64,000 nt of DNA from Eledone cirrhosa (GCA_964016885.1 OZ024743.1:344906001-344970000); one strand, 5' to 3'; shown: positions 8,243-62,771, counted from the stretch's first letter. Numbers and translations are program-made. Notes: a model not told the origin generated them from the letters alone.

Positions 8243-9560
8243 CTCTCTCCTTTCACTAACTCTGTCGCTCTCCTCATCTCTATATCTCACCACCCAGCTC
8301 TCCATCTCTCTCTCCTTTCACTCACTCTGTCACTCTCCTTATCTCCACCTCTCTCCTTTCACTCACTCTGTCGCTCTCCTCATCTCTATATCTCTCCTTT
8401 CACTCACTCTGTCGCTCTCCTCATCTCTATATCTCTCCTTTCACTCACTCTGTCTCTCTCCTCATCTCTATATCTCTCCTTTCACTCACTCTGTCTCTCT
8501 CCTCATCTCTATATCTCTCCTTTCACTCACTCTGTCTCTCTCCTCATCTCTATATCTCTCCTTTCACTAACTCTGTCTCTCTCTTCATCTCTACATCTCT
8601 CCTTTCACTCACTCTGTCACTCTCCTCATCTCTATATCTCTCCTTTCACTAACTCTGTCTCTCTCCTCATCTCTACATCTCTCCTTTCACTCACTCTGTC
8701 ACTCTCCTCATCTCTATATCTCTCCTTTCACTAACTCTGTCTCTCTCCTCATCTCTACATCTCTCCTTTCACTCACTCTGTCACTCTCCTCATCTCTATA
8801 TCTCTCCTTTCACTCACTCTGTCTCTCTCCTCATCTCTATATCTCTCCTTTCACTCACTCTGTCACTCTCCTCATCTCTATATCTCTCCTTTCACTCACC
8901 CTGTCTCTCTCCTCATCTCTATATCTCTCCTTTCACTCACTCTGTCGCTCTCCTCATCTCTATATCTCTCCTTTCACTCACTCTGACTCTCTCCTCATCT
9001 CTATATCTCTCCTTTCACTAACTCTGTCTCTCTCCTCATCTCTATATCTCTCCTTTCACTCACTCTGTCACTCTCCTCATCTCTATATCTCTCCTTTCAC
9101 TCACCCCGTCTCTCTCCTCATCTCTATATCTTTCCTTTCACTCACTCTGTCACTCTCCCCATCTCTATATCTCTCCTTTCACTAACTCTGTCTTTCTCCT
9201 CATCTCTATATCTCTCCTTTCACTCACTCTGTCACTCTCCTCATCTCTATATCTCTCCTTTCACTCACTCTGTCTCTCTCCTCATCTCTATATCTCTCCT
9301 TTCACTCACTCTGTCACTCTCCCCATCTCTATATCTCTCCTTTCACTAACTCTGTCTCTCTCCTCATCTCTATATCTCTCCTTTCACTCACTCTGTCACT
9401 CTCGTAATCTCTATATCTCTCCTTTCACTAACTCTGTCTCTCTCCTCATCTCCATATCTCTCCTTTCACTAACTCTGTCTCTCTCCTCATCTCTATATCT
9501 CTCCACCCAGCTCTCCATCTCTCTCCCTTTCACTAACTCTATCACTCTCCTCATCTCAAC
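8243..9560. repeat. 41-bp pyrimidine-rich minisatellite, ~30 copies
   Basis: Unit CTCTCCTTTCACTCACTCTGTCTCTCTCCTCATCTCTATAT; period 41 (e.g. 8401 and 8442). Confidence 0.95.
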
Positions 9561-10620
9561 TCCGCTCACTATATATCTCTCTTTCGCATCATCCTCACTC
9601 GTTGACCGATCGAATTACTTACTTTCCACACCACACATATCTTGACCAATTGTAGCGAGAAGTTGTTACACGACCAATGACCAATGGCGAGTGATCGAGG
9701 ATCAGTGGGAGTGGGTAATATGTTCAACGAAAGACAAACACACTCTCCTTCAACAAATAGAAACGACATTGCATATGTGCTAGCACTTGTGGTAGTGTTG
9801 GTGCTGGTTGTGAAGGGGTGTCTTAATGATGGTGGTGGAGGTAACGATGATGTTGTTGGAGGTGGTGATTGTGGCGGTTGTGTTGGTGAGTTTAATGGTG
9901 GTGGAGGTGGCGATGTTGTTGTTGTTGGTGGTGATTGTCATGGGGTTGCGTTGGTGAGTTTAATGCTGTTGATGGTAACATTGATTGCGTAGGTGGTGGC
10001 TGTGAAGGGGTGTCTTAATAATGGTGGTGGAGGTGGCGATGTTGTTGTTGTTGGTGGTGATTGTCATGGTTGTGTTGGTGAGTTTAATGCTGTTGATGGT
10101 AACATTGGTTGCGTATGTGGTGGCTGTGAAGAGGTGTCGTCATTGTAGTGGTGGTGGTTGTGGTGATGCTGGTTATAGTGGGATACTCGAGCATAATAGT
10201 TGCTGTGGCGATTGTGATGGTTGTGTTTCTAAGCTTGATGTTGGTGGCGGTGGTGTTGGTGAAATATTAGTAGATAATGATTGTGGTGGTTTCGATGGTA
10301 AGCTTGGCGTTGTTGGTGTTTATGGTAGTAGTTATAATGTTGGTGGTTGTTCCGAAAATAGAGGTTGGTGTTGTGATGGTGACAATGATGGTGATGGGAT
10401 GTCTCTGGATAATAGTCGAGGAGGCGATGATTGTGATGGTTATGTTTCTAAGCTAGGCGGAAGTGGTGGCATGTTGGTGGTGCTCCTATGTTGCGGGATA
10501 ATATTTGTGGTGGTGATGAGGTGATGATTGTGGTGGTTGTGTTGGTAAGCCTGATAGCAGTGGTGTTGGTGATGGTTGTGAAAATGGAGAAGGCTGTTGA
10601 TAGTGACGATGGTGGTGGAG

Positions 10621-12780
10621 GGTTATTGGTAGATAATGCTGTTGGTGGAGGGTTATTGGTAGATAATGGTGTTGGTGGAGGGTTATTGGTAGATAATGGT
10701 GTTGGTGGAGGGTTATTGGTAGATAATGCTGTTGGTGGAGGGTTATTGGTGGATAATGCTGTTGGTGGAGGGTTATTGGTAGATAATGGTGTTGGTGGAG
10801 GGTTATTGGTAGATAATGCTGTTGGTGGAGGGTTATTGGTAGATAATGGTGTTGGTGGAGGGTTATTGGTAGATAATGGTGTTGGTGGAGGGTTATTGAT
10901 AGATAATGGTGTTGGTGGAGGGTTATTGGTAGATAATGCTGTTGCTGGAGGGTTATTGGTAGATAATGCTGTTGGTGGAGGGTTATTGGTAGATAATGCT
11001 GTTGGTGGAGGGTTATTGGTAGATAATGGTGTTGGTGGAGGGTTATTGGTAGATAATGCTGTTGGTGGAGGGTTATTGGTAGATAATGGTGTTGGTGGAG
11101 GGTTATTGGTAGATAATGGTGTTGGTGGAGGGTTATTGGTAGATAATGGTGTTGGTGGAGGGTTATTGATAGATAATGGTGTTGGTGGAGGGTTATTGAT
11201 AGATAATGGTGTTGGTGGAGGGTTATTGGTAGATAATGCTGTTGGTGGAGGGTTATTGGTAGATAATGCTGTTGGTGGAGGGTTATTGGTAGATAATGCT
11301 GTTGGTGGAGGGTTATTGGTAGATAATGGTGTTGGTGGAGGGTTATTGGTAGATAATGCTGTTGGTGGAGGGTTATTGGTAGATAATGGTGTTGGTGGAG
11401 GGTTATTGGTAGATAATGGTGTTGGTGGAGGGTTATTGATAGATAATGGTGTTGGTGGAGGGTTATTGGTAGATAATGCTGTTGGTGGAGGGTTATTGGT
11501 AGATAATGCTGTTGGTGGAGGGTTATTGGTAGATAATGCTGTTGGTGGAGGGTTATTGGTAGATAATGGTGTTGGTGGAGGGTTATTGGTAGATAATGCT
11601 GTTGGTGGAGGGTTATTGGTAGATAATGGTGTTGGTGGAGGGTTATTGGTAGATAATGGTGTTGGTGGAGGGTTATTGGTAGATAATGGTGTTGGTGGAG
11701 GGTTATTGATAGATAATGGTGTTGGTGGAGGGTTATTGGTAGATAATGCTGTTGGTGGAGGGTTATTGGTAGATAATGGTGTTGGTGGAGGGTTATTGAT
11801 AGATAATGGTGTTGGTGGAGGGTTATTGGTAGATAATGCTGTTGGTGGAGGGTTATTGGTAGATAATGCTGTTGGTGGAGGGTTATTGGTAGATAATGCT
11901 GTTGGTGGAGGGTTATTGGTAGATAATGGTGTTGGTGGAGGGTTATTGGTAGATAATGCTGTTGGTGGAGGGTTATTGGTAGATAATGGTGTTGGTGGAG
12001 GGTTATTGGTAGATAATGGTGTTGGTGGAGGGTTATTGATAGATAATGGTGTTGGTGGAGGGTTATTGGTAGATAATGCTGTTGGTGGAGGGTTATTGGT
12101 AGATAATGCTGTTGGTGGAGGGTTATTGGTAGATAATGCTGTTGGTGGAGGGTTATTGGTAGATAATGGTGTTGGTGGAGGGTTATTGGTAGATAATGCT
12201 GTTGGTGGAGGGTTATTGGTAGATAATGGTGTTGGTGGAGGGTTATTGGTAGATAATGGTGTTGGTGGAGGGTTATTGGTAGATAATGGTGTTGGTGGAG
12301 GGTTATTGATAGATAATGGTGTTGGTGGAGGGTTATTGGTAGATAATGCTGTTGGTGGAGGGTTATTGGTAGATAATGGTGTTGGTGGAGGGTTATTGAT
12401 AGATAATGGTGTTGGTGGAGGGTTATTGGTAGATAATGCTGTTGGTGGAGGGTTATTGGTAGATAATGCTGTTGGTGGAGGGTTATTGGTAGATAATGCT
12501 GTTGGTGGAGGGTTATTGGTAGATAATGGTGTTGGTGGAGGGTTATTGGTAGATAATGCTGTTGGTGGAGGGTTATTGGTAGATAATGGTGTTGGTGGAG
12601 GGTTATTGGTAGATAATGGTGTTAGTGGAGGGTTATTGGTAGATAATGCTGTTGGTGGAGGGTTATTGGTAGATAATGCTGTTGGTGGAGGGTTATTGGT
12701 AGATAATGCTGTTGGTGGAGGGTTATTGGTAGATAATGGTGTTGGTGGAGGGTTATTGGTAGATAATGGTGTTGGTGGCG
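10621..12780. repeat. 30-bp minisatellite, 72 units, with higher-order structure
   Basis: Unit GGTTATTGGTAGATAATG(C/G)TGTTGGTGGAG; exactly two units per 60-bp line over 36 lines. Confidence 0.97.
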
Positions 12781-19415: not shown

Positions 19416-19822
19416 AATGGTTAATAGAAATAACGAAACAAACGACACACTACATGGAAGAAATATATTAGTTTAACGCTTGAAATCCAGGAAGAGAGTC
19501 ATAACCTTTCGGTCACTCGTACTTCATCAGAAAATAGAGTTAGAAATAGAAGATAAATAGAAAGAAAAGAATGATAAGAGGAAGGAATGGGGAATTATGA
19601 GGAGAAGATAAACACACGACCGTATTCAGGCATCTTGTATATATATATATATATATATATATAGGTAGATGGTTTATACAGAACCGTTTATATTTCAGTT
19701 TCTCTTGTGTAATGTTAAACGTGCGTCATCCTTTCGGCAAATACTGAAAACAACATTCTTCTTCTTCTTCTTCTTCTTCTTCTTCTTGCTATTATTACCC
19801 CTTCCACGATGGGGTAATAATA

Positions 19823-22800
19823 GACCCAGTCGGTGGTGCTGGACGTGACCGGCAGCGAAGGCAATGCTTTCAGGCTAGTAGCAGTCTACGCCCCAACAGG
19901 TACAGGACGGCCAGATTTCTTCAGGCGTCTAGATACCTTTCTTGGAACGTCCCGCTCTTTAGTGTTAGTTGGCGACTGGAACGGTATCTTGGATGCACGC
20001 TGGGATCGTATGGGGCTAGTGGCTAGGGGAGGAGGGTAAAAGAGCCTCACCAACCTGCTCAGATGTTTTTAACTGTTTGACAGGTAACGACTGGATCACC
20101 CGAATGTGCCAATGAGGACATGGACAAACCGCATCTGGTCATCCAGATCGTATATCGATAGGGTATTCTGCAGAGAAGTAGATAAGGCTAGTATAAGTTG
20201 TCCACAATTTAAAATAGTCGACTACACAGACCACATATTTGTGATCTGTGAGATCGACATAGACAGACTTCATAGACAAGGGCCTTGTTACTGGAAGCTG
20301 AATGCGTCTTTCCCGGCGCGCAAAGCCTACAGAGACCGGATTAGCGTATTAGTTAAGCGGGCGTTGATGGGAGCAGTCGTCAACAATAGGTGGTGGTTCG
20401 CCCTGAAAAGTGCAATTAAAGTAGAGTCGATTAGGTTTAGAAAAGGAGTAGTGAAAGAGGAAAATAGAGTAGAGGGAGAGCTAGTCAGAAAGCTAGAAGA
20501 GGCGTTTAGGACAGGCATCGCAACCGACGTGCTTGCGGCGAGATTGGCACTCGACCAATTCTTCAACGCAAAACACGAAGGCTGCGTTGTCAGAGCTAGA
20601 GCGGATGCTCTGAAACACGAGGGGACAAAAGCCGTCCAATGGGCCCGGGTGGCAGAGGGGCGACGTGGCAACAAAGCCACAATTCGGTCTTTGTCTGACC
20701 AAAACGGGTGGGTGATGCTCGAACCCGAGCGGATGTGTGAAGCTTTTCAGCAGCACTTTGCTGAACTGTTCGGGAGCGGCGGCGGCCCGGATCGGGGCAT
20801 GGACTTCAGTGCATACCTCGACGCATGCCTCGGCTCTCGACGACGGCAGCACAGTGTTGCGAAAAGTCAATGCCAGCCGGTGAAATACGGGAAGCGATGG
20901 CTAACTGCACAAGGGGTAAATGGCCAGGTTTGGATGGTCTGCCCTACGAGCTTTATGCATTTATGCCAGACTTGTTCGGTGACCTCTTGGCAGACATCTA
21001 CTGCAACTGGCAGCAGAACGGGAGTATTCCCAGTTTTGTGAGCCGGGGAGCAGTGGCGCTGCTGAGAAAAGACCCGAACAAGGGGGATGTTATCGATAAT
21101 TTCAGGCACATAACCCTGCTAAACGCAGAGTTCAAGATTTTGACCAAGGTGTTAGCAACGAGGTTGGCGCTTGTCGTTAAGTGTCTGGTGGGAGAGGCGC
21201 AGACATGCGCCATTCCGGACTGATCCATACACGACAACCTCCACCTCATGCGATACATCATAGAGAGGGTGGTTAAGGAACCTGGCACGGGTGGGGCCCT
21301 GATCAACTTGAATCAATCCAAAGCATTCGATAGGGTCGACCATCGGTACCTGGCGGCGGTCCTCGAGGCAGCCGGTTTCGGGCCCGTTTTCAGGGGTTGG
21401 ATGGTAGCAATGTACAGCGACATCTGCTCAGCGACATCTGCTCAGCATCATGCGCTCATCAGTCCGCCAGGGTTGACCCCTCTCGTCCATCTTGTACGTA
21501 TTGGCTCTCGAGCCGTTACTGCACAAACTGGGGGCGATGAGGGGCGTCCCACGCGAACTAGGATGCGGGAAATCCGAGTCGGCTTATGCTGACAACGTCA
21601 CCGTGGTGGTATCTAGTACCAGACAAGTCCAGTTGCTCGGCACCGCTCTCAAGGAATACGAAGCGGTGACAGGAGCAAAGATAAACCAGGAAAAGTCGGT
21701 GCATTTTCAGCTCGGTACCTGGAGAGGCAAGTCCATGCCGTCCGACAGCGTCGTGGGGCGTTGGACGGACGGACCGGTTAAATTGCTCGGGGTCTGGTTC
21801 GGACCGGATCTCCAGATAAAGAAAAACTGGAACGAGGTGACGAGCAGGGTGGCCTCCCTCACCCAGAAATGGGCCGAGAGGAAGCTGTCCCTGAAAGGCC
21901 TGGCGGAGGTGGCGAATGCGTACATCGCATCCGTCATCTGCTACCGCTTCACCGTCGTCCCTTGCTCCAGCCCAACTCTCACCAAAATGGAGCGCCTCCT
22001 CTTCCGCTTTTTGTGGAAAGGACGCGCTTCCATAGTCAGACGATGCATCTTCTGTCAACACCCGTTGCGTGGAGGATTGGGCATGCCATGGCTGATGATG
22101 CGCAAACATGCGCTGAGGCTGCAACATCTCTGGTGCTTCCTTGATGGTGAACAGGTGTAGTCGCCGTTCGCCAGGCACGTTTTCCCACAGCTCGTCTCCT
22201 TGACGGAGCTGCAGTCCTGGGTCAGAAAAAGACCGAGGGATAGCGCTTGGAAACTGGAATGTCTCCAGGCGCTCACTGCCCTCTGCCAGCTGGGCACCAG
22301 TATCGGTGGAACATCCACCTCTGCGGTCTATAGAGGATAGTGGAGGGGAAGAGCGGCGACATTCTCGGAGAGATGCTGGGCGTCGAAGAAGATCAGCTGT
22401 TTGCTCTCTTCCGGAGAACTTTCGCCCGGGCCTTTGGATAACTTCCACAAATCCCTGACCTGGCAGTGCTACCGGGGAGCGCTGCCGGTTCGAGATAAGC
22501 TCTACAGGCACGGAAGTGCCGTCAGCCGAGCCTGTCCAAGATGCGCACAGAGCGACGAAACCGTCGTGCACGCACTCGTTCAGTGCCCGAGCATTGCTGA
22601 CTTGTGGAGCTATGTCGAACAGTTGCTGTCGCGTGTAGGACTGATCCGGTTGTCGACTGAGTCCATTGTGCAGATGGTCTCGCCGTCTTCCTACGAGGAG
22701 GAAGGGCAGGCGGTTTTCATCTGCCTGCTGGCCATGGCGAAAGAGATTGTGTGGTGGACAAGGTTAAAAGGGTTAAAGGCAGACACTTTCCTCTTCGGCG

Positions 22801-23255
22801 AATCCCTAATTAACTTTTTCAAGTTTCACTTGAAGAGGAAAATCAGGTAAGAGAGGCAAGTGCTGCCTTCTAGGAAGTTTGTTGAAAGGTGGGTGAATGT
22901 AGCGAGAATGGTCCGAGTGAACATACGTATATACACTCTGAATATACGTCTGTAGTTTGAAAGATGGAAACATTGAGAGAGGGCGCTTGCCCTGGTGGTC
23001 AGTGTGGCCGTGGTCTTTTGTGTGGTTTTCGCCACGAGTAACCCTCGGGGGTTTCCCCCCTATTGGGAAATTTTTCATTGTTTCAATTTTTATTTTTATT
23101 GTTTATATATATGTTTCTATGTCCTTTTTTTTCTTTTCTTATATAAATAATAAAAATATTTAAACGCACAAAACCCACATCGTACCGTCCTGTACAGTCC
23201 TGTGCCGTCTGTAATGTTTTTCTTGATGTCAGCCCTTGTGGCCAATAAAGAAATC
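19823..23255 (+). mobile_element. 5'-truncated, decayed Tx1/L1-clade LINE (ORF2 pseudogene plus 3'UTR)
   Basis: ORF fragments 19833-22850 are colinear and clearly homologous to ORF2 at 58932-62369 (GDWNGILDARWD, YWKLN, KAFDRVDH, AYADNV, CPRC..ETVVHALVQC), with stops and frameshifts. The 3' end GCCCTTGTGGCCAATAAAGAAATC is followed by (ATT)n. Confidence 0.92.
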
Positions 23256-26592: not shown

Positions 26593-29500
26593 GAAAATCC
26601 CGTGACCAAGAAATACCGGGATGGGGGCCGGCAGGGAATAACCGTGTCTATAGGGGAGGACGACCACTCTAGTTTTGGTTGACACTCGTCCTAGAAGTGG
26701 TAACACGAAATGATTACCCCTTGGCGGTTAAGGATAAAACGCGACAAAATAAAGTAAATGTCAAATGATAAAATCTCATACCGGATCGGTCGTCACTCGG
26801 GTCATAAAGGGCAACGTCCCTCAGAGAGGAACCAGACTGGGGTCGAAAAATCAGCTAATGATTCAAATCTTCGCATCACTTCGCAGCTGGAGACCTCCCA
26901 TAACCGGAATACTCCTACTGTTGGCCCTCCATGCTCACTACTAAGAAATCGAAAGAAAAAGAGAGAAAAATGGTCAAGAGAAGACAATAAAGAAGTCCTT
27001 GAGGCTTTCTACATTTCCATGTACTACCCATCAAATAGATCGAATACAGAACAGACATATATCAACTGGAAAAAGAAACACTCACGAAAACAGAGGCTAT
27101 ATTGACAGTAACAAACTAGTCAATATACGAAGAAATATTGTTAAAAAAATGTTACTAACTGATATAGAAATTGATCAGATCAAGCTATTAGCACAAAGTC
27201 AGCGAAGGGAAAATGAAACATGTGTCAGTGAAAACGGGGTAAATTATAACACTTCGAATCCCAGGTTGGGGCGGAATCCCTGACAACAGAACAAATTAAA
27301 GAAAGGATCGAAAACGTGGAGGGAGTGCATGCTCAAGTTGAAACTCAAAATGAAAACAATGAGATCGTAAATGATAAAGAAATGAATGAGAATAAACTTG
27401 CCAACTTGAAGGATGAAATTATGATCGAATGGATGAAAATGAAAGAGTCTGACATGGCGGAACGAGACACTCTCCATAAGATCCAGAACTCCAAACAGAA
27501 TCAAAAGATAATACACAAGACTAACATAATTATTAAAAACATTATCATCACAAACAAACTAAACATTACTGATTTAAATCATCTCTATTATGCATCGTCT
27601 AAAGTCACCACTCACTTATGTGGAGTGACAATGAAAAACAAAGGAATTCCCACAAGAAATCTACTTGGCAAGAGAACATCAATCGCCAAATAAACCTTCT
27701 CCGATCTGACAGAAATTTTAACAAACTACAAAGTAGGTGAACATGTTAAACAAACTAAACTTAGAAAATTGAAAAGAAAATACAGTATAAAATCAACAAG
27801 TGACATAGACATGCTGATAGAAATAATCAAGCAAAAAGTGTCGGCCAAAGATGCTCGTATAAGGCGCTTTGAAAAACGATCAAGATTTTATAAGAACAAT
27901 AATATGTTCAAAAACAACCAAAGAAACTTCTACAGAAAAATTGGCAAGTCAACAATAACTGCTAAATCAATACCACCCAAGGAGGAAGTGCAAGAATTCT
28001 GGGAAAAGATCTGGTCCGAAGAAAAAGTTCATAATATACATGCCCCATGGATAGACAGACAAATGAAAGATACAGCTCACCTTGAGGAACAAATATGGGA
28101 AAATATAACAGTTGAACAGTTGCGTTTGGCTCTTAGAAAAACCAGCAAATAGAAATCCCCAGGAAAAGACAAAATACCAAATTTTTGGATAAATGCTTTC
28201 ACAGAGTCTCATGAGCTGTTAGCCCAACTTTAAAATGATATAGTTAAGGAGCCAGAAAAGATACCTTCATGGCTAGTTAACGGCATTACATTCCTGCTTC
28301 CGAAGAATGATGAGACAAACAATCCCAAAAATTACAGACCGATAACTTGCTTGACCACAATGTATAACATTTTAACATCAGTCCTAACTGAATATACATA
28401 TGACCACCTGATAACAAATGACCTATTTCCCATTGAGCAGAAAGGGTGTAAAAGAGGCTCATGTGGCTGTAAGGATCAGCTTTTGGTTAACAATATGATA
28501 TTGGAAGATTGTCATAATAGACACAGCAATCTATCAATTGCTTGGATAGATTATAAAAAAGCATTCAATAGTTTGCCACACAGTTGGATTGAAAAATGTT
28601 TTGAGATTTTCAAAATATCTCCCGTTGTCAGGAGGTTCCTGTCATTCAGTATGAGGACCTGGAAAACGACACTACTTTTGAATAGTGAAATAAAATCACT
28701 GGAAGCTGGAGAAGTTAATATTAATTGTGGAATTTTTCAGGGTGACTCTTTATCACCGCTTTTATTCTGCATCGCACTTATACCATTAAGTAAAATGCTC
28801 AATGAAACAAAACATGGATATAAAGTCTATGACAAAACCATTAATCAATTGTTCTACATGGATGACCTGAAACTAATTGCAAAAAATGACGAACAATTGC
28901 AAGGGCTATTATCCGCTGTGGAGCAGTTCAGTGATGACATTAAAATAAAGTTTGGACTAGATACATGCGCCAAATCAACGTTCACCAGAGGAAAGCTGCT
29001 GAAAAGTTCAGACATTAATCTTGATCGGGGGAATGTGATAAAGGAACTTGATCAAGGGGAAACTTACAAATATCTAGATGTTTATGAAGGAGACGGTATC
29101 AAGCCCTCGACAATGAGGGAAAGGATAAGGAAGGAATGTTACCGCAGAGTAAGAGCAATCTTAAGAATATAATTGAATGCAAGGAATAGGATCGATGCCA
29201 TAAACACGCTTGCCATACCAGTAGTAACCTACAGTTACAATGTCATCAACTGGTCAAGCACAGAGATCCGTAGGCTCGATACAAAAATTAGAAAATTCTT
29301 AACCATTCACAAAATGCATCACCCTAAGGCAGATACAGATAGAATATATCTCCCTAGGAAAGAAGGAGGACGTGGGTTAATCCACTTAGATATTGCGTTG
29401 AAAACTGCAACAATTGGATTATCTACATATCTAAGGGAATCACATGATTGGATGATCAAACTCGTTTTGAAACACGAAAGCATCAAAAGATCATACTCCA

Positions 29501-30551
29501 TTACAAAAGATGCACAAAGATACAGTACTGGACTACAAATTTCAGAAGTCCCATTTACTGCTGAAATGGAAAACACAGAAAAAGCAAAGCAGGTAAAAGT
29601 AACTGCAAAGAAATAACTGCTACAGAAACTGGCTAAGAAATGGCAAGAAAAGCCTCTGTATGGAAAATACCCAGAAAGAGCTAACAATCCTGATGTTGAC
29701 AAAACTTTAACCCATCAGTGGTTGGCATCCTCTGGACTGAAATCGGAGACTGAAGGACTGATTATATCAGCACAAGATCAGTGTCTGCCAACAAAAAATT
29801 ACCAAGCCAACATAATAAAAAATGGATGCAATCCATTATGCCGTGTATGTAAAAAACAACCAGAGACCATTGACCATATAATTTCAATGTGCAGTCCTAT
29901 AGCTCCAACCGAATACCTAAACAGGCATGACAGAGCTGCACAATACATACATTGGATAATGTGTAAGCATTTTGACCTGCCCCATCAAAAGAATTGGTGG
30001 GAGCATCAACCACCTCCTATACTTGAAAAAGATCACATCTCAATCTTGTGGAACTTTAGCATCCAAACAGACCGAAAAATAAATGCAAATAGACCTGATA
30101 TAATACTGAAGGACTTTAAAAAGAGGGTATGCCTGCTAATTGATATGTCCGTTCCAATAGACAAGAATATATCTATAAAAACATTTGAAAAATTGAGCAA
30201 GTATAAGGACCTGGAGATAGAAATTGGAAAAATGTGGAAATTGAGAACTAAAACAATACCAGTGGTTGTAGGCGCTCTAGGAATGATACATAAGGGGTCT
30301 AATGATTACTTATCACAAATCACAGGAAAGCCGCGTATAGGAGAAATACAAAAGATAGTACTAATGGGAACTGCCGATATACTAAGGAAGATTCTGTCAA
30401 TATAAGTACATCACAAGTTTAAACACCTAAAGATGCATGTGTGAGTACGTTTGTTCTTTCTTGAACATGACGGACCTTGTTGTCTCTTGAGGTCACTGGT
30501 TGTGACTTGGTGATAACTCGTATGAACATAAAGCAAGATAAATGCAGCTGT
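26593..30551 (+). mobile_element. Near full-length decayed R4/Dong-type RLE non-LTR retrotransposon (single ORF broken by stops and frameshifts)
   Basis: Fragments 26758-30405: KWSRE, EQKGC, AWIDYKKAFNS, GIFQGDSLSP, YMDD, LPRKEGGRGL, CRVC..ETIDHIISMC, RHD, NRPDI..D..P, K.SKY, PVVVGALG. The 3'UTR is followed by TAA/(TAC)n/(TAA)n. The 5' boundary is approximate. Confidence 0.9.
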
Positions 30552-39121: not shown

Positions 39122-39251
<130 letters not shown>

Positions 39252-54707: not shown

Positions 54708-54828
<121 letters not shown>

Positions 54829-54866
54829 TAGATAGATAGATAGATGGAGATAGAGAGAGAGAGATG

Positions 54867-56676: not shown

Positions 56677-56728
<52 letters not shown>

Positions 56729-56729
<1 letters not shown>

Positions 56730-56748
56730 GTGGCTAATAAAGAAACAT
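56729..56748 (+). mobile_element. Extremely 5'-truncated Tx1 3' tail (~20 bp) within (ATCT)n
   Basis: TGTGGCTAATAAAGAAACAT matches the 3' termini of both Tx1 copies (GTGGCAAATAAAAGAAACAT; TGTGGCCAATAAAGAAATC) and has the same junction into ATCT. Confidence 0.7.
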
Positions 56749-56764
56749 ATCTATCTATCTATTT

Positions 56765-56840
<76 letters not shown>

Positions 56841-57058
56841 CGATGGACACATGTGCTGAGCTCGCTCGGTAAGTTTTTGTTTAAATTCATACGGAAATTG
56901 TAAACTGTAAACTTTCATTTTTGTACCATTTTGTAGAGGGACTGCCAGGTCAAATTTTGATCTGGTCGGTCTCTCAAAATATTCTGCGCCTTTAGGCGAA
57001 ATAGTATTGTGAACATTTTATCTTTCGAAAAACTTCGAAAAACCCTATTTTGAGAAAA

Positions 57059-57235
57059 ATGGCTGAAGCATCTTCACCATCAATCAAAGAAGGAAAGGGG
57101 AAGTCATACTCACAGCTTCCTCCTGCCACTGTCACAGCAGCAGATGCCAAAGGCAGAGGTCAGAGAGAGGAAGAATTGTCTTCACCTGTTGACCGACCAC
57201 TAGATGTAGCCACAACTACACAAGAATTTGAAAAC

Positions 57236-57266
<31 letters not shown>

Positions 57267-58907
57267 GCAACAATAAAGACAACAAAAACAACAACAACAC
57301 AAACGTCACAAGTATCCACACACGAAACGAGAAAGACAACAACAACAACAAAGATGAAAACAACTCAAACGACGAGAAACAAAACAATACTAATATCCAA
57401 AACGAAAACAAAATATCTTTTGCACAAACGGCTAAATTATCAGTCGCGTATGTGCTTGAAGATATTTCAAAAGCAAAAGAAATGCTGGAAAAAGCCAAGA
57501 AATATGTGTCTTTTGGCGAAAACGGTTCGTTTTCTATACATTCACCTCCGGAGCTAAAAAGACAGACGGAATTACGAACTGTCGTATTCCGAACAATTTT
57601 AAATAAAACAAAGAAACCAGCGCAACCATCTCAAGCGGAAATTCAGTTAGTCTTGAAAGACGCGATGAGAGACATCACTTTCATACAAAAGGATAAACTC
57701 TATGGGAGTTTATCCATATTGATGAAAGACGAATTGGCGGCAAAAAAATACTCTGTGTCGCCAATTCGGTCCACACACTACACCTTCTTCCCCACCTACA
57801 TGGGTAAAAAAACCCAGAGGATATGGATAACCACCATCACCCCAAACATAAACTACTGGTGGTTACTAACCGGTTTCCTCAATTTAGACGAGGACAACCT
57901 CATCTCAATAAGGAAGGCATCCGGCGACGCGTTCAGTGGAACGAGCCTCGAAGTTCTGACCCAAATAAGGCCAGAACGCATCGCCCAAATCCCTGAGCGC
58001 GTCATGCTGGATGACCGTACCCACCTCAACATTATTGTGGAGGGTAGGCGTCCCTCCTGTTACCTCTGTGGCAATAGAGGTCACCTGAGGGCTGCCTGTC
58101 CCCAGCTCACACAGAAAAAAACACTGCTACCAACACCAACACCACCCCAACTACAACAACAAAAACAACCACAACAACAACAAAAACCAACAACCCCACC
58201 ACCACCACAACAACAACAACAAACACGTGAAAAAATAACACAGAATACTGTCCCACCCAATCCCTCCCCACCCAAAGCAAATACAAAAACACGCACACCG
58301 CAAACACTACCAGAAAACATACCCCTCCCACCCAACAAGGAAGACGAACCTCTTTCGTCGCAAGACGAAAAAGATCCCTTCCAACAAGTAAAAAGAAAGA
58401 AGAGGAGACGCACCACAGACACACATGTTAACTTTAACCCCCCCCCCCCAAGAGAACACAAACTACACACAAACCACCCCTCCCTGTCACACAACACTAA
58501 CTGCTACACAAAAAAAGACCTTACAATACACATACATGAACACAGACAACAAAGAATTACGGAAAACAATTTCAGCAAACCCTTCGGTCCAAACTGAAGG
58601 GCCAAACTTTATAACTGCTGTGGGACTACCTCATTTGAAAATGATAAAAGTCCCAATGCACTTGTACAAAACACTGAAAATAAATTTCACGGAGGACGTG
58701 GGCCCCCCCTGCGCCAAACCAATCAACCGCGTCCTCCTAAAAAATGCCACCCCCCCACCCCACCCAGACACCCACTCAACGACAAACACCCCAACCCCAC
58801 AACACACCGATGCCCCTTCACTTCCACAAACCACCACCCCACCCAACAACCCATCCCCAACCAGCATGGAAATTGAGCGGCCCGTTTCCCGGGACGCAGA
58901 GAGGTAA
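57059..58907 (+). CDS. Tx1-type ORF1 (gag-like nucleic-acid-binding protein), probable 1-nt frameshift in the C12 run at 58438-58449
   Basis: ATG at 57059 (MAEASSPS); zinc knuckle CYLCGNRGHLRAAC (CX2CX4HX4C); poly-N and poly-Q/P tracts. The reading continues in the +1 frame (58425-58907), which stops just before ORF2. Confidence 0.8.
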
Positions 58908-58931
58908 GTGCCTTTTCTCTTTACCACCAAC

Positions 58932-61900
58932 ATGGCTGTGCTAAGAGTAGGGTGTCTAAATGCGCGTGGCCTGGGCTCGTCTTGGAAGCAAGCAATGCTT
59001 CTAAATGACCTCAGGTCACAATCTATAAATGTGATGGTTATCTGCCAGGCCCGGATCAGCAGCATGCGGCAGCTAGCCCCCACCTTTGACGACTTTGAGA
59101 TGCACGCATCTCTCTGTCAGCCCGGAGGTGGGGGTGGGGTTGTCGTTCTGCTGCAAAAACATATGGGCCTTGCAACACAGATAGTTCACTTGGACCCAGG
59201 GGGTCGACTGGTGGTGCTGGACCTTGGCAGTGGTGAAGGTAGAGCCTTTAGGCTGATAGCCGCATATGCCCCTTTTGGGACAGAGCGGCCCGACTTTTTC
59301 CAGCGTCTGGAGTCTTTTCTAGGGACGTCCCGTTCCCTGCTTTTAGTGGGGGATTGGAATGGTATCCTGGATGCACGTTGGGACTATGCAGGGGCATGTC
59401 CCGATAGAGAGGGGTGCAACAGCCTCAAGGGGTTACTCGGCCGATTTGACCTGGCCGATAGATTTCGACTAGATTTTCCGACGGTGCCAACCTGGTCTTG
59501 GTCAAATCGCAGCGGATCATCTAGATCGTACCTAGATAGATTTTTAGTTAGAAATAAGGACAGGGACTTTTTAAGTTGTCCAGAAATGCTCATGGTTGGC
59601 TATTCAGACCACAAGTTGGTGACCTGCATGGTCAATCTTGATAGAACGCATAGACAGGGCCCCGGTTACTGGAAGCTCAACTTGTCCTTGCCGGCAAGTA
59701 GAGCCTACAGGAATCGGATTAGTACGTTAGTTAAGGAACGGTTGACTGGAGCGATCGTCAACAGCAGGTGGTGGGTATCTCTAAAGAGAGAGATTAGAGT
59801 AGTCTCGATTGAATTTAGTAAGGTTCTAGCTGCGGATAGGAATAGGAAGGAAAGGGAGCTAATAGATAGAGTAGAAGAGGCAATTAGAAGCGGCGACGTG
59901 GCCAGAGTGCTAGCGTCGAGAACGGCTTTGAGCCAGTTTTTCGACGCGAAGCACGAAGGTTGCGTTGTCCGAAGTAAAATACGTGCTCTAGGGAACGAGG
60001 GGACCAAAGCTGTTAGCTGGGCCCGCGTGACAGAGGCCAACAGTGGAACTAAATCCACCATCCGGTCTTTGCGAGACCTGGATGGACGGGCGATTCTTGA
60101 GCCTAAGCAGATGTGTGAGGCCTTTCAAAGGCACTTTGCCCGACTGTTCGGGAGGGGCGGGGAGCCGGTTGGGAACGTGGACTTCGGTCCATACCTCGAC
60201 GGCCTGCCGCGCCTCTCGGACAGGGAGGCGAAGTCCTGCGAGGAGCCGATTTCGGCCGCTGAGATAGAGGACGTGCTGAGCCAATGCGGCAAACGCAAAT
60301 CCCCGGGTCTCGATGGTCTTCCTTACGAATTATATCTAGCTATGCCGGACTTGTTCCCCGATCTCCTCGAGGCGGTCTACTGCAACTGGCAACAGAACGG
60401 GAGAATTACCTGTACTGTGACCAAGGGCGTAGTCACGCTAGTGAGGAAGGACGAGAACAAGGGGGACGAAATAAGTAACTTCAGGCCCATAACTCGAGAG
60501 TCACAGCATACAGGCAAGGTGTAGGAAGAGATGGCAGCCTTGTCGATGGGACCTGGCGGCGATTTGAACGGCTGCGAGAGGTATCCGTTCACCTTGGACC
60601 CTATAGCAGATGCGGCTCTGTGACATAGCAGGTGGATCCAGCCCCTGAAAACGGGTTCGAAGGCCTGCCGCCGCTAGCACCGCATCCAGGTAACCATGGT
60701 CGACCCTGATAGGGTCGACCATGGTTACCTGGATGCGGTGCTAGCGGCGGCAGGCTTCGAACCCGTTTTCAGGGGCTGGATCACTGCTATGCACAGCAGC
60801 CGCATCTGCTCTAGGGTCAAGGTGAACGGCTACCTCTCGCAGCCGTTCAAAATCGCGCGGTCCATCCGACAAGGGTGCCCTCTCTCCTCCCTTCTGTATG
60901 TGTTGACTCTCGAGCCACTACTGCGGAAGTTGGAGTTGTTGCAGGGCATCCCTTTGGAACCGGGATTGCGGAAAGCGGTGTCAGCCTACGCCGATGACGT
61001 GACAGTAATGGTGTCGACGGCCTCCGAAATCGAGGCGGTCGGCACCTTACTGGAGGAGTACGAAAAGTTCACAGGGGCTAAGCTGAACCGGGACAAGTCG
61101 ATCGGTTTGCAACTCGGCACGTGGAGGGGCAGACCGATGCCCTCCGATGGCGTCGTCGGACGCTGGACGGAGGGCCCGGTGAAGTTGCTCGGGGTCTGGT
61201 TCGGACCGGACCTCCAGGTGGAGAAAAACTGGGCGGAGGTTACGAACAGGGTGTTTGCACTGACCCAGAAGTGGGCCAGTTGCAAACTATCCCTGAAAGG
61301 TCGGGCGGAGGTGGCGAACACTTATATAGCGTCCGTCATCTACTACCGCCTGACCGTAGTGCCCTGCCCAAGGGAAACCCTCACCGAGATGGAGCGCGCG
61401 CTCTTCCAATTCCTTTGGAAGAGGCGGGCTCCCATGGTGAGGAGATCCATCTGCTGTCAACACCCTTCGAAAGGAGGGCTGGGGATGCCGTGGCTAATGA
61501 TGCGTAAACACGCATTAAGGCTACGGCACCTCTACGTATTCCTCACCGGACAACCGGTGTGGGCCTCGTTTGTGAGACGAACCTTTCCCAGACTCGTCTC
61601 ACTCACCGAGCTGCAATCTTGGGTCAAGCAAAGACCGAGAAAACTGGGCGCCTGGCACACTGAGTGTGCCCAGGCGCTCACCGCCCTCTGGCAGGCGGAT
61701 CCGGTTATCAGTGGAGACTCCACCGCAACATTCTATAGAGGGCTGGTACGCAGCAGGTGCGACGACGCCCTCGGAGAAGCCCTAGACATGGAGGAGGACG
61801 AACTGGCCAGCCTGTTCGGTAGGACATTCAGCCCGGGACCTATGGACAACTTCCAGAAGTCCCTGGCCTGGCAGTGCTACCGAGGGGCTTTACCCGTTCG

Positions 61901-62369
61901 AGAAAGGCTCTACAGACACGGGCGCCCGGGTAGGGACCCCGCCAAAAAGATCTGTCCCAGATGCGTGTGCGACGAGGAAACCGTTGCACACGCATTGGTA
62001 CACTGTTCGGGCGTAGCCGATCTGTGGGGCTATGTCGAACAACTGCTGTCAAGGGTGGGACCGATCCGGTTGACCACCGAGACTATTGTAATGATCAAGC
62101 CGCCTCCCCCCTTCAAAGATGAAGCAGAGGTGGTGTTTCTGTGCGTAATAGCCATAGCGAAAGAGGTTGTATGGTGGACGCGTCTGAAAGGACTGAGGTC
62201 AGGCACCTTTCTCTCTGGCCAACAACTGGTCCGTTTCTTCCGATATCATTTCGGAAGAAGGATCAGGATGGAGAGAGAGGTGCTGCACCCCAGCCGTTTT
62301 TATGAAAGGTGGGTGAAAGTGGCGAGAATGGCCCGTGTGAATGGGCCTTCTCTTTACATAAGCCTGTAG
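58932..62369 (+). CDS. Tx1-type ORF2 (apurinic-like endonuclease, reverse transcriptase, zf-RVT), interrupted by an inverted segment at 60494-60707
   Basis: APE motifs CLNARGL, GDWNG, SYLDRF, SDHK; PGYWKLN; KSPGLDG; RT motifs QGCPLS and YADD; C-terminal CPRC..ETVAHALVHC. Both halves (58908-60524 and 60696-62369) are in the same frame. Confidence 0.9.
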
Positions 62370-62633
62370 GTGGAAAAGAGGACGGAACGAGGGAGCACCC
62401 CCTCTCTGTGCTCCTGAGGAAAAGGGTTGCACACTTTTTTCGGGGGTGTGTGCAACCCCCCAAGGCGCCTCCTCTCTATTGAGGATTTTGTTAAAAATTT
62501 TATTTTTTGTTATATCTTATTTTATTTTTATATTTTGTTATTGCCTCCTCCTTATTGAGGACGCCTTTTTGTGTAAACTCCCCTCTTTGTACTTGTCCCA
62601 CTTTTGATGCCCTAGTGGCAAATAAAAGAAACA

Positions 62634-62697
<64 letters not shown>

Positions 62698-62771
62698 GAT
62701 CTATTGATCGATCGATCTACTATTGACATACAAATGCACACACATCTATATATTTATTTTTCCATTTTTAG

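What the first reader, a model, noticed from the sequence alone, without database searches (positions are those of the whole stretch)
56678..62700. Possibly active Tx1-clade LINE that appears specific for (ATCT)n/(GATA)n
Seen: a full-length element flanked on both sides by (ATCT)n, and a separate 20-bp 3'-tail insertion (56729-56748) in the same tract with the same junction (..AGAAACAT|ATCT). Apart from one homopolymer frameshift and one inverted patch, both ORFs are open. Known: Tx1-clade elements are often sequence-specific, including microsatellite-specific families such as Kibi (TC)n and Koshi (TTC)n. Inference: a GATA-repeat-targeting family whose APE domain would be a candidate tetranucleotide-repeat-specific nickase.
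Basis: partly seen in the sequence, partly recalled or inferred. Interest (0 to 1): 0.75.

Follow-up and report, generated by a model that had tools for sequence, protein, structure and literature searches.

The report
LINE family targeting GATA microsatellites
This is a broken copy of a young, abundant jumping-gene family in a likely octopus genome whose copies sit at the short word TATCT, mostly inside GATA repeats and always facing one way, likely because their enzyme cuts there; a close sister family sits in ATT repeats instead, which would allow a direct test of how such elements choose a target.

Summary
The targeting claim holds for the family; the activity claim fails for this copy. 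Window 56841-62634 is a full-length Tx1-type LINE. Its 3' 20-mer has 2,583 exact genome matches, 2,199 followed by ATCT. In 92 consecutive copies none faced the other way; 52 of 77 5'-truncated copies had TATCT at the 5' junction (background 4.6%). Eleven unique target duplications (shuffled mean 0.19) start at the element's end with no added tail, so ATCT is target, not only tail. The target is a short T^ATCT motif: 4 of those 11 sites are not arrays, and 10 of 92 copies sit in AT runs. This copy has an ORF1 frameshift, a catalytic Glu-to-Gln change in the endonuclease, and 212 bp of RT replaced by an inverted patch (likely a consensus artefact). Two of 20 siblings have both ORFs whole. The 19-bp mini-insert comes from a sister subfamily. 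A 67%-identical sister lineage uses (ATT)n. Microsatellite-targeting Tx1, including tetranucleotide targets, is published; I found no paper on this target; Repbase/Dfam unchecked. This scan already reported the same lineage on other DNA.

The parts
56678..56729 (+). (ATCT)13, upstream part of the target tract, preceded by (CATAT)n
56730..56748 (+). 19-bp 3' terminus of a sister subfamily ('B'), an extremely 5'-truncated insertion; CT at 56728-56729 is shared with the subfamily's upstream bases
   Evidence: exact match to an end motif with 4,040 genome matches; 30 loci show it as an element end; a 20-bp equivalent of this element's own subfamily with a 17-nt duplication (1 mismatch) is L161
56749..56840 (+). 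(ATCT)n 5' flank of the full-length copy; the last bases may be an element-carried leader; the duplication cannot be read inside a pure repeat
   Evidence: leaders between duplication and element start in L093, L146, L157, L173
56841..57058 (+). 5' UTR
   Evidence: common start of full-length copies; 210 exact matches of the 5' 19-mer
57059..58907 (+). ORF1 (616-617 aa in whole siblings), CCHC zinc knuckle at aa 333-349; frameshift at the C run 58438-58449
   Evidence: zf-CCHC 17.8-18.2 bits, below Pfam's cut-off of 20.8
58932..59651 (+). APE-type endonuclease domain of ORF2; Glu39 reads Gln here (codon 59046-59048)
   Evidence: model of sibling L099 pLDDT 95, best match human L1 endonuclease TM 0.83
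60496..60707 (-). 212-bp patch replacing 212 bp of native RT; inverted copy of 60711-60915 with traces of the native sequence, likely a consensus artefact
60708..62369 (+). rest of ORF2: RT with YADD at 60987-60998, C-terminal zinc finger
62370..62634 (+). 3' UTR with AATAAA near the end, no poly(A) tail
   Evidence: none of 92 copies is followed by an A run
62635..62694 (+). (ATCT)15 3' flank, beginning at the insertion point
19788..23255 (+). 5'-truncated copy of the (ATT)n sister lineage in the same window, followed by (ATT)5
   Evidence: 80-81% DNA identity to L224 and L221

Best explanation
This is a broken full-length copy of a young Tx1-type LINE lineage whose copies lie at T^ATCT in one orientation with 11-17 bp target duplications, likely because the ORF2 endonuclease nicks the GATA strand there and the freed end primes reverse transcription of the element RNA. 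Shown: junction sequence, orientation, duplications, domain content, several subfamilies sharing the target. Inferred: bottom-strand nick at 5'-AGAT^AG-3' (or one base over, since the T can come from element or target); second nick 11-17 bp away; priming likely helped by pairing of the primer with AUCU read through from the donor's own flank, since no copy shows poly(A); (ATCT)n arrays and earlier copies' tails are hit most because they offer the word many times, which stacks copies head to tail.
For: 2,199 of 2,583 exact 3' ends are followed by ATCT, reversed-pattern control 0; chance of ATCT at a position 0.46-0.61%. First 92 of the 100 listed C1 matches: ATCT 80, ATAT 10, ATTT 1, ACCT 1; opposite orientation 0 of 92. 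Of 89 usable copies, 77 truncated: 45 have two or more units within 30 nt of the 5' junction (background 0.4% and 1.3%), 52 have TATCT within 25 nt (background 4.6%). Strict unique duplications in 11 of 89, shuffled mean 0.19, maximum 2 in 1,000; 9 start ATCT, 2 ATAT; the base before is T in 11, CT in 9; none has extra repeat units between element end and duplication. A more abundant microsatellite choice exists nearby: in window 1-56500 AT runs cover about 3,000 bp and ATCT runs 56 bp. ATCT-ending rows form one clade (98/96, 14 rows) apart from ATT-ending rows (97/94). 17 of 89 copies have another family member's 3' end within 70 nt upstream. Endonuclease-set targeting is published for Tx1L (PMC1950540 passages) and SART1/TRAS1 (PMC7265360 introduction).
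Against: 25 of 77 truncated copies lack TATCT at the mapped 5' junction; 4 lie in AT runs, 1 (L051) is interrupted by other DNA, several have near-words (CATCT, AATCT), but about a dozen are unexplained, some with ATCT runs at the 3' end. Only 49 of 92 3' flanks hold two or more units. The ATCT at the 5' end of full-length copies (29 of 30; 89 of 104 minus-strand matches) is not independent evidence, because ATCT-like leaders lie between duplication and element start in L093, L146, L157, L173. The endonuclease hairpin loop differs little between ATCT and ATT lineages. No biochemical or RNA data.
Confidence: 0.7

Rival explanations
1. Primer-pairing selection: the endonuclease is only loosely specific and the site is chosen by pairing between the nicked DNA end and an AUCU-containing RNA 3' end, as proposed for RTE-clade elements.
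For: No poly(A) in 92 copies; near-words ATAT, ATTT and ACCT are used; hairpin loops of ATCT and ATT lineages differ at few positions; PMC6007223 (abstract) links duplication starts to 3' microsatellite-like ends in RTE elements.
Against: CT stands before the duplication in 9 of 11 unique sites, including lone sites, on the side of the nick that the RNA cannot pair with; most copies end in AT, not CT. The two routes are not exclusive.
Confidence: 0.22
2. No targeting: (ATCT)n is an element-encoded tail that seeds microsatellites, and 5' ATCT comes from leaders or neighbouring copies.
For: Leaders with ATCT-like bases on full-length copies; some copies have 3' ATCT runs and an unrelated 5' flank (L119, L121, L135).
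Against: In 11 of 11 unique duplications no tail units are added; truncated copies, which carry no leader, have 5' TATCT in 52 of 77; L102 and L031/L111 have no ATCT at all after the end.
Confidence: 0.05
3. Random insertion followed by selective retention or by recombination that piles copies into GATA tracts.
For: Head-to-tail stacks are common (17 of 89).
Against: One orientation and one phase in 92 of 92, base-exact junctions, duplications, and the same pattern in the youngest copies.
Confidence: 0.03

Closest known systems
Crocodilian Tx1 families in (TTCC)n/(TTTC)n (Tx1-1_Crp, Tx1-5_Crp, Tx1-6_Crp, Tx1-1_Gav, Tx1-2/3/5/8_AMi; PMC4494074, section 15 and passages read)
   Same: APE-type Tx1 LINE preferring a tetranucleotide microsatellite
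Kibi (TC)n and Koshi (TTC)n of teleost fish (as cited in PMC4494074 passages; the original 2004 paper is not held)
   Same: Microsatellite-specific Tx1 LINEs
   Different: Different repeat; named fish proteins here are only 32-37% identical in the RT region and form a separate branch; whether those proteins are Kibi or Koshi is not known
L1-Tx1 families of Octopus vulgaris (PMC13282606, parts 1-2 of 3 and its one supplement searched)
   Same: 13 recently active L1-Tx1 families, 421 insertions, in an octopus genome; this family or a relative may be among the consensus sequences
   Different: No target preference is reported in the parts read; the library on Zenodo could not be compared
Xenopus Tx1L and human L1 endonucleases (PMC1950540 passages; PDB 1vyb, 2v0r, 2v0s)
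   Same: Same fold (TM 0.80-0.83) and catalytic residues; Tx1L endonuclease is sequence-specific in vitro
   Different: Target here is a repeat word; 19% identity to L1 endonuclease
RTE-clade LINEs/SINEs with 3' microsatellite-like ends (PMC6007223, abstract)
   Same: No poly(A); duplication start matches the repeat at the 3' end
   Different: Different clade; here no tail units are added at unique sites

Membership tests
APE-type non-LTR retrotransposon (L1 group) | ORF2 with APE endonuclease, RT and C-terminal zinc finger | tested here: met
   Pfam Exo_endo_phos, RVT_1, zf-RVT; human L1 ORF2p best PDB match E 5e-48; fold match
APE-type non-LTR retrotransposon (L1 group) | 5' truncation, fixed 3' end, target site duplication | tested here: met
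   77 of 89 truncated; 11 strict duplications against shuffled mean 0.19
Tx1 clade | RT phylogeny: groups with Tx1 rather than L1 | tested here: inconclusive
   A Takifugu protein whose cluster is named 'Transposon TX1 uncharacterized 149 kDa protein ORF 2' scores 217 bits on 381 aa against 167 bits for human L1 ORF2p on the whole protein (different databases); the tree held no L1, Tx1L, Kibi or Koshi reference and was midpoint-rooted
Tx1 clade | ORF1 with a CCHC zinc knuckle (recalled as typical, not from a call) | tested here: met
   CX2CX4HX4C at aa 333-349, Pfam E 0.003, below curated cut-off
Target-specific Tx1 family (criterion of PMC4494074: target in more than 20% of flanks) | One sequence type in over 20% of flanks | tested here: met
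   85% of 3' flanks genome-wide; 58-68% of truncated 5' flanks
Kibi / Koshi / crocodilian (TTCC)n-(TTTC)n group | Target (TC)n, (TTC)n, (TTCC)n or (TTTC)n | tested here: not met
   0 of 92 3' flanks begin with these
Kibi / Koshi / crocodilian (TTCC)n-(TTTC)n group | Phylogenetic membership of that branch | not testable with these tools
   No labelled reference sequences available
Sequence-specific APE nickase | Isolated endonuclease nicks the target selectively | not testable with these tools
   Needs a nicking assay
Currently active LINE | Whole ORFs, identical or polymorphic copies, transcripts | tested here: inconclusive
   This copy: not met. Family: both ORFs whole in 2 of 20, ORF2 open over its length in 7 of 20; closest pair of 17 differs at 17 of 5,594 sites, median 0.8%, none identical
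Catalogued Repbase/Dfam family | Match to a library entry | not testable with these tools
   No such library on hand

The most novel reading that the evidence does not exclude
Octopods carry a recent, still-mobile radiation of Tx1 LINEs in which sister lineages switched between (ATCT)n and (ATT)n through a few endonuclease residues outside the classic hairpin loop (candidates among about 40 fixed differences: F115 vs T beside the YAP motif, the loop at 58-66, S194 vs I, G223 vs S), giving a natural matched pair of repeat-specific nickases for reading and reprogramming APE target choice.
Probability: 0.3. Interest if true: 0.7.

Novelty: new member of a known kind. Interest (0 to 1): 0.45.

Why it matters
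How APE-type LINE endonucleases gain and change sequence specificity is open: loop grafting between L1 and Tx1L did not transfer specificity in a modular way (PMC1950540 passages). Two young lineages in one genome, 67% identical in ORF2 and 58-60% in the endonuclease, with different repeat targets and whole natural copies, make that question directly testable and may yield a nickase or insertion tool for GATA repeats. It also means GATA microsatellite loci in this genome are insertion hot spots, which bears on marker design and on assembly of these regions.

Tried and rejected
Reading the duplication of the window copy or of the mini-insert: impossible inside a pure repeat. A lenient duplication test (one mismatch) gave 31 of 89 against a shuffled mean of 7.4, maximum 14; I rely on the strict test. 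Three of 92 copies were dropped before 5' counts (L048, L190: junction outside the fetched DNA; L166: inverted 5' piece). The forward count (168) counts overlapping matches and was not used. Using full-length 5' flanks as proof of targeting was rejected because of carried leaders. No RNA holder listed. Raw reads X22 laid only spuriously (35 reads); X6 and X9 gave one contig each; none used. Contigs of X1 and X4 cover the 3' junction into ATCT, but the runs are coded and one may be the window's own source, so this is weak. A programmed frameshift at the C run was rejected: its length varies from 5 to 14 among copies. An earlier count gave the endonuclease change as E38Q at 59023; the right place is codon 39 at 59046-59048. 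Literature searches found no paper on an ATCT/GATA-targeting Tx1; the library lacks most subscription journals and Repbase Reports; supplements of PMC4494074 were not available and its Fig. 3, which lists targets of other Tx1 families, is not held, so an ATCT family could be listed there. Search of earlier findings by sequence gave nothing; by words and place it did.

Full report
Observation. The sequence shows (ATCT)n at 56678-56729, 56749-56760, 56768-56839 and 62635-62694, a 19-bp insert at 56730-56748 and an element from 56841 to 62634. ORF1 starts at 57059 and shifts frame at a 12-C run; ORF2 (58932-62369) has APE, RT and zf-RVT domains. The window lies on contig C4 of a 3.0-Gb genome. 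The closest named protein is from Argonauta hians, 66% identical in the RT region, so the host is likely an octopod (inference).

This copy is broken. I fetched 20 of the 40 listed near-identical 5' ends. All 19 that span the region align to the window except over 60496-60707. There the window holds 212 bp, exactly the length of the native segment in L099, but the patch is an 86%-identical reverse complement of the following DNA with many small gaps. It removes about 70 codons of RT including most of DQSKAFD, and adds a stop. The patch scores 62 against the native segment, the pure inverted arm 29, and 300 randomly edited controls at most 53: it is a blend of both, which points to a consensus-calling artefact (inference; not checked on reads of this locus). 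Contig depth in run X1 falls about tenfold over the patch, so it is not a family feature. Codon 39 of ORF2 is CAG; 18 of 18 siblings holding the motif have GAG; it aligns with L1 endonuclease residue 43, whose catalytic role is recalled, not read.

The family is large and young. The 3' 20-mer has 2,583 exact matches, shared by subfamilies from 83% to 99% identical; the 5' 19-mer has 210. Of the 20 siblings, L095 and L099 have both ORFs whole (617/616 and 1,145 aa), and ORF2 is open over its length in 7. Among 17 full-length copies, the closest pair differs at 17 of 5,594 sites, the median is 0.8%, none is identical; these were chosen for likeness to the window, and assembly errors add to the distances. 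At the rate quoted in PMC13282606 (0.0036 per site per million years, another species) this means roughly the last million years (inference). Present activity is possible, not shown.

Target or tail. Genome-wide 2,199 of 2,583 ends are followed by ATCT. I then took the first 92 of the 100 listed matches on C1 with up to 6.4 kb upstream. 3' flanks: ATCT 80, ATAT 10, ATTT 1, ACCT 1; none in the opposite orientation; none with an A run; 49 hold two or more units, 31 one, 12 none. After dropping three copies with unreadable 5' junctions, 77 are truncated: 45 have two or more units within 30 nt upstream (background 0.4% in the window, 1.3% in distal flanks) and 52 have TATCT within 25 nt (4.6%). 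Exact duplications with non-repeat bases occur in 11 of 89, against 0.19 on average and 2 at most in 1,000 shuffles. They are 11-22 nt long, 11-17 after removing bases shared with the element; 9 start with ATCT and 2 with ATAT; the preceding bases are CT in 9 and AT in 2. Each starts right at the element's last base, so no tail was added. Four (L059, L123, L173, L189) are lone words, not arrays. Against: 25 of 77 truncated copies lack 5' TATCT, about half of them unexplained. The 5' ATCT of full-length copies (29 of 30; 89 of 104 minus-strand matches) is partly carried by the element: in L093, L146, L157 and L173, 11-20 ATCT-like bases lie between duplication and conserved start, which suggests transcription starting in the donor's upstream repeat (inference).

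The mini-insert. It matches the end of a sister subfamily with 4,040 matches; 25 of its first 30 loci continue with ATCT, 2 with ATAT, 3 with CTCT. It is therefore an independent event by a related element. L161 is a like case of 20 bp.

Sister lineage with another target. Following a lead from earlier notes of this scan, I searched the genome with the Argonauta protein. All 30 loci fetched of 66 matches end in (ATT)n and are about 67% identical to L099 ORF2. Their end motif has 6,659 matches; 27 of the first 30 continue with ATTATT, none of the printed rows with ATCT; of 10 copies whose alignment ends within 1.5 kb, 5 have ATT repeats upstream and 2 TTC repeats, a weaker test than for the ATCT family. 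One truncated copy lies in this window at about 19788-23255. In a tree of 260 aa of RT, 14 ATCT-ending rows form a clade (98/96) beside 2 ATT-ending rows (97/94), the Argonauta protein and one unnamed protein; rows over 95% alike were merged and rows with stops left out. The endonucleases are 58-60% identical; about 40 positions are fixed differently between 8 ATCT and 5 ATT sequences, few of them in the hairpin loop. Kin share residues, so this list gives candidates only.

Mechanism. From established LINE biology (target-primed reverse transcription) and the duplications: the endonuclease likely nicks the GATA strand at AGAT^AG, or one base over; the 3' end primes cDNA synthesis at the fixed RNA position just after AATAAA; a second nick 11-17 bp away gives the duplication. 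With no poly(A) in any copy, pairing with read-through AUCU likely helps priming. The conserved CT before the nick, which the RNA cannot pair with, favours a real share for the endonuclease. The model of L099 aa 1-240 (pLDDT 95) matches human L1 endonuclease best (TM 0.83). Endonuclease-set specificity is shown for Tx1L (PMC1950540, passages) and SART1/TRAS1 (PMC7265360, abstract and introduction); RNA-tail influence is proposed for RTE elements (PMC6007223, abstract).

Comparison with what is known. PMC4494074 (passages and section 15) names Kibi (TC)n, Koshi (TTC)n and crocodilian families in (TTCC)n/(TTTC)n; its text has no GATA or ATCT, its figures and supplements were not visible. PMC4640811 (passages) confirms that microsatellite targeting recurs in several clades. 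PMC13282606 (parts 1-2 of 3, supplement searched) counts 13 recently active L1-Tx1 families in Octopus vulgaris with no targets given. PMC10294476 (passages) adds none. Nine searches found no report of this target. Tx1 membership is likely but was not tested against labelled references. Earlier notes of this scan describe the same lineage at other places of this genome and in another genome; they are not independent support.

Verdict. Real, well-supported preference for T^ATCT, mostly in GATA arrays; a new target word within a known kind; this copy is dead as assembled, the family is young and perhaps still mobile. The value lies in the ATCT/ATT sister pair. Interest 0.45.

Noticed in passing
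   Followed up: no
window 19788-19830; L174 5' junction: Fold-back palindromes at 5' junctions of truncated copies: the target repeat and nearby bases reappear inverted before the element begins, possibly second-strand template switching.
   Followed up: no
window 10613-12778: 30-bp repeat, 72 copies, 97% alike; open without stops in two frames (plus strand GGGLLVDNGV-like, minus strand PPTPLSTNNP-like): possibly a mucin-like exon or a coding-neutral minisatellite.
   Followed up: partly
window 8309-9504: 41-bp minisatellite, 29 copies, 94% alike.
   Followed up: no
window about 27800-30400: Another, distant non-LTR element (20% identity to this ORF2; open frames of 312 and 262 aa at 28234 and 29617), clade not determined.
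   Followed up: partly
window 39215-39250 and 54826-54845: Two short (AGAT)n tracts on the other strand, not noted as carrying an element of this family: possible unoccupied targets.
   Followed up: no
L133, L134 (G000:C1:45.73-45.74 Mb): Two copies inserted in a satellite of about 29 bp whose unit holds ATCT words.
   Followed up: no
L169, L173, L191: Three insertions of two subfamilies at the same site (ACT^ATCTGTAACAC) of one dispersed repeat: a recurrent non-microsatellite target.
   Followed up: no
P0003-P0066: A large group of unnamed relatives at 46-54% RT identity forms the next branch outside the octopod elements; their targets are unknown.
   Followed up: no
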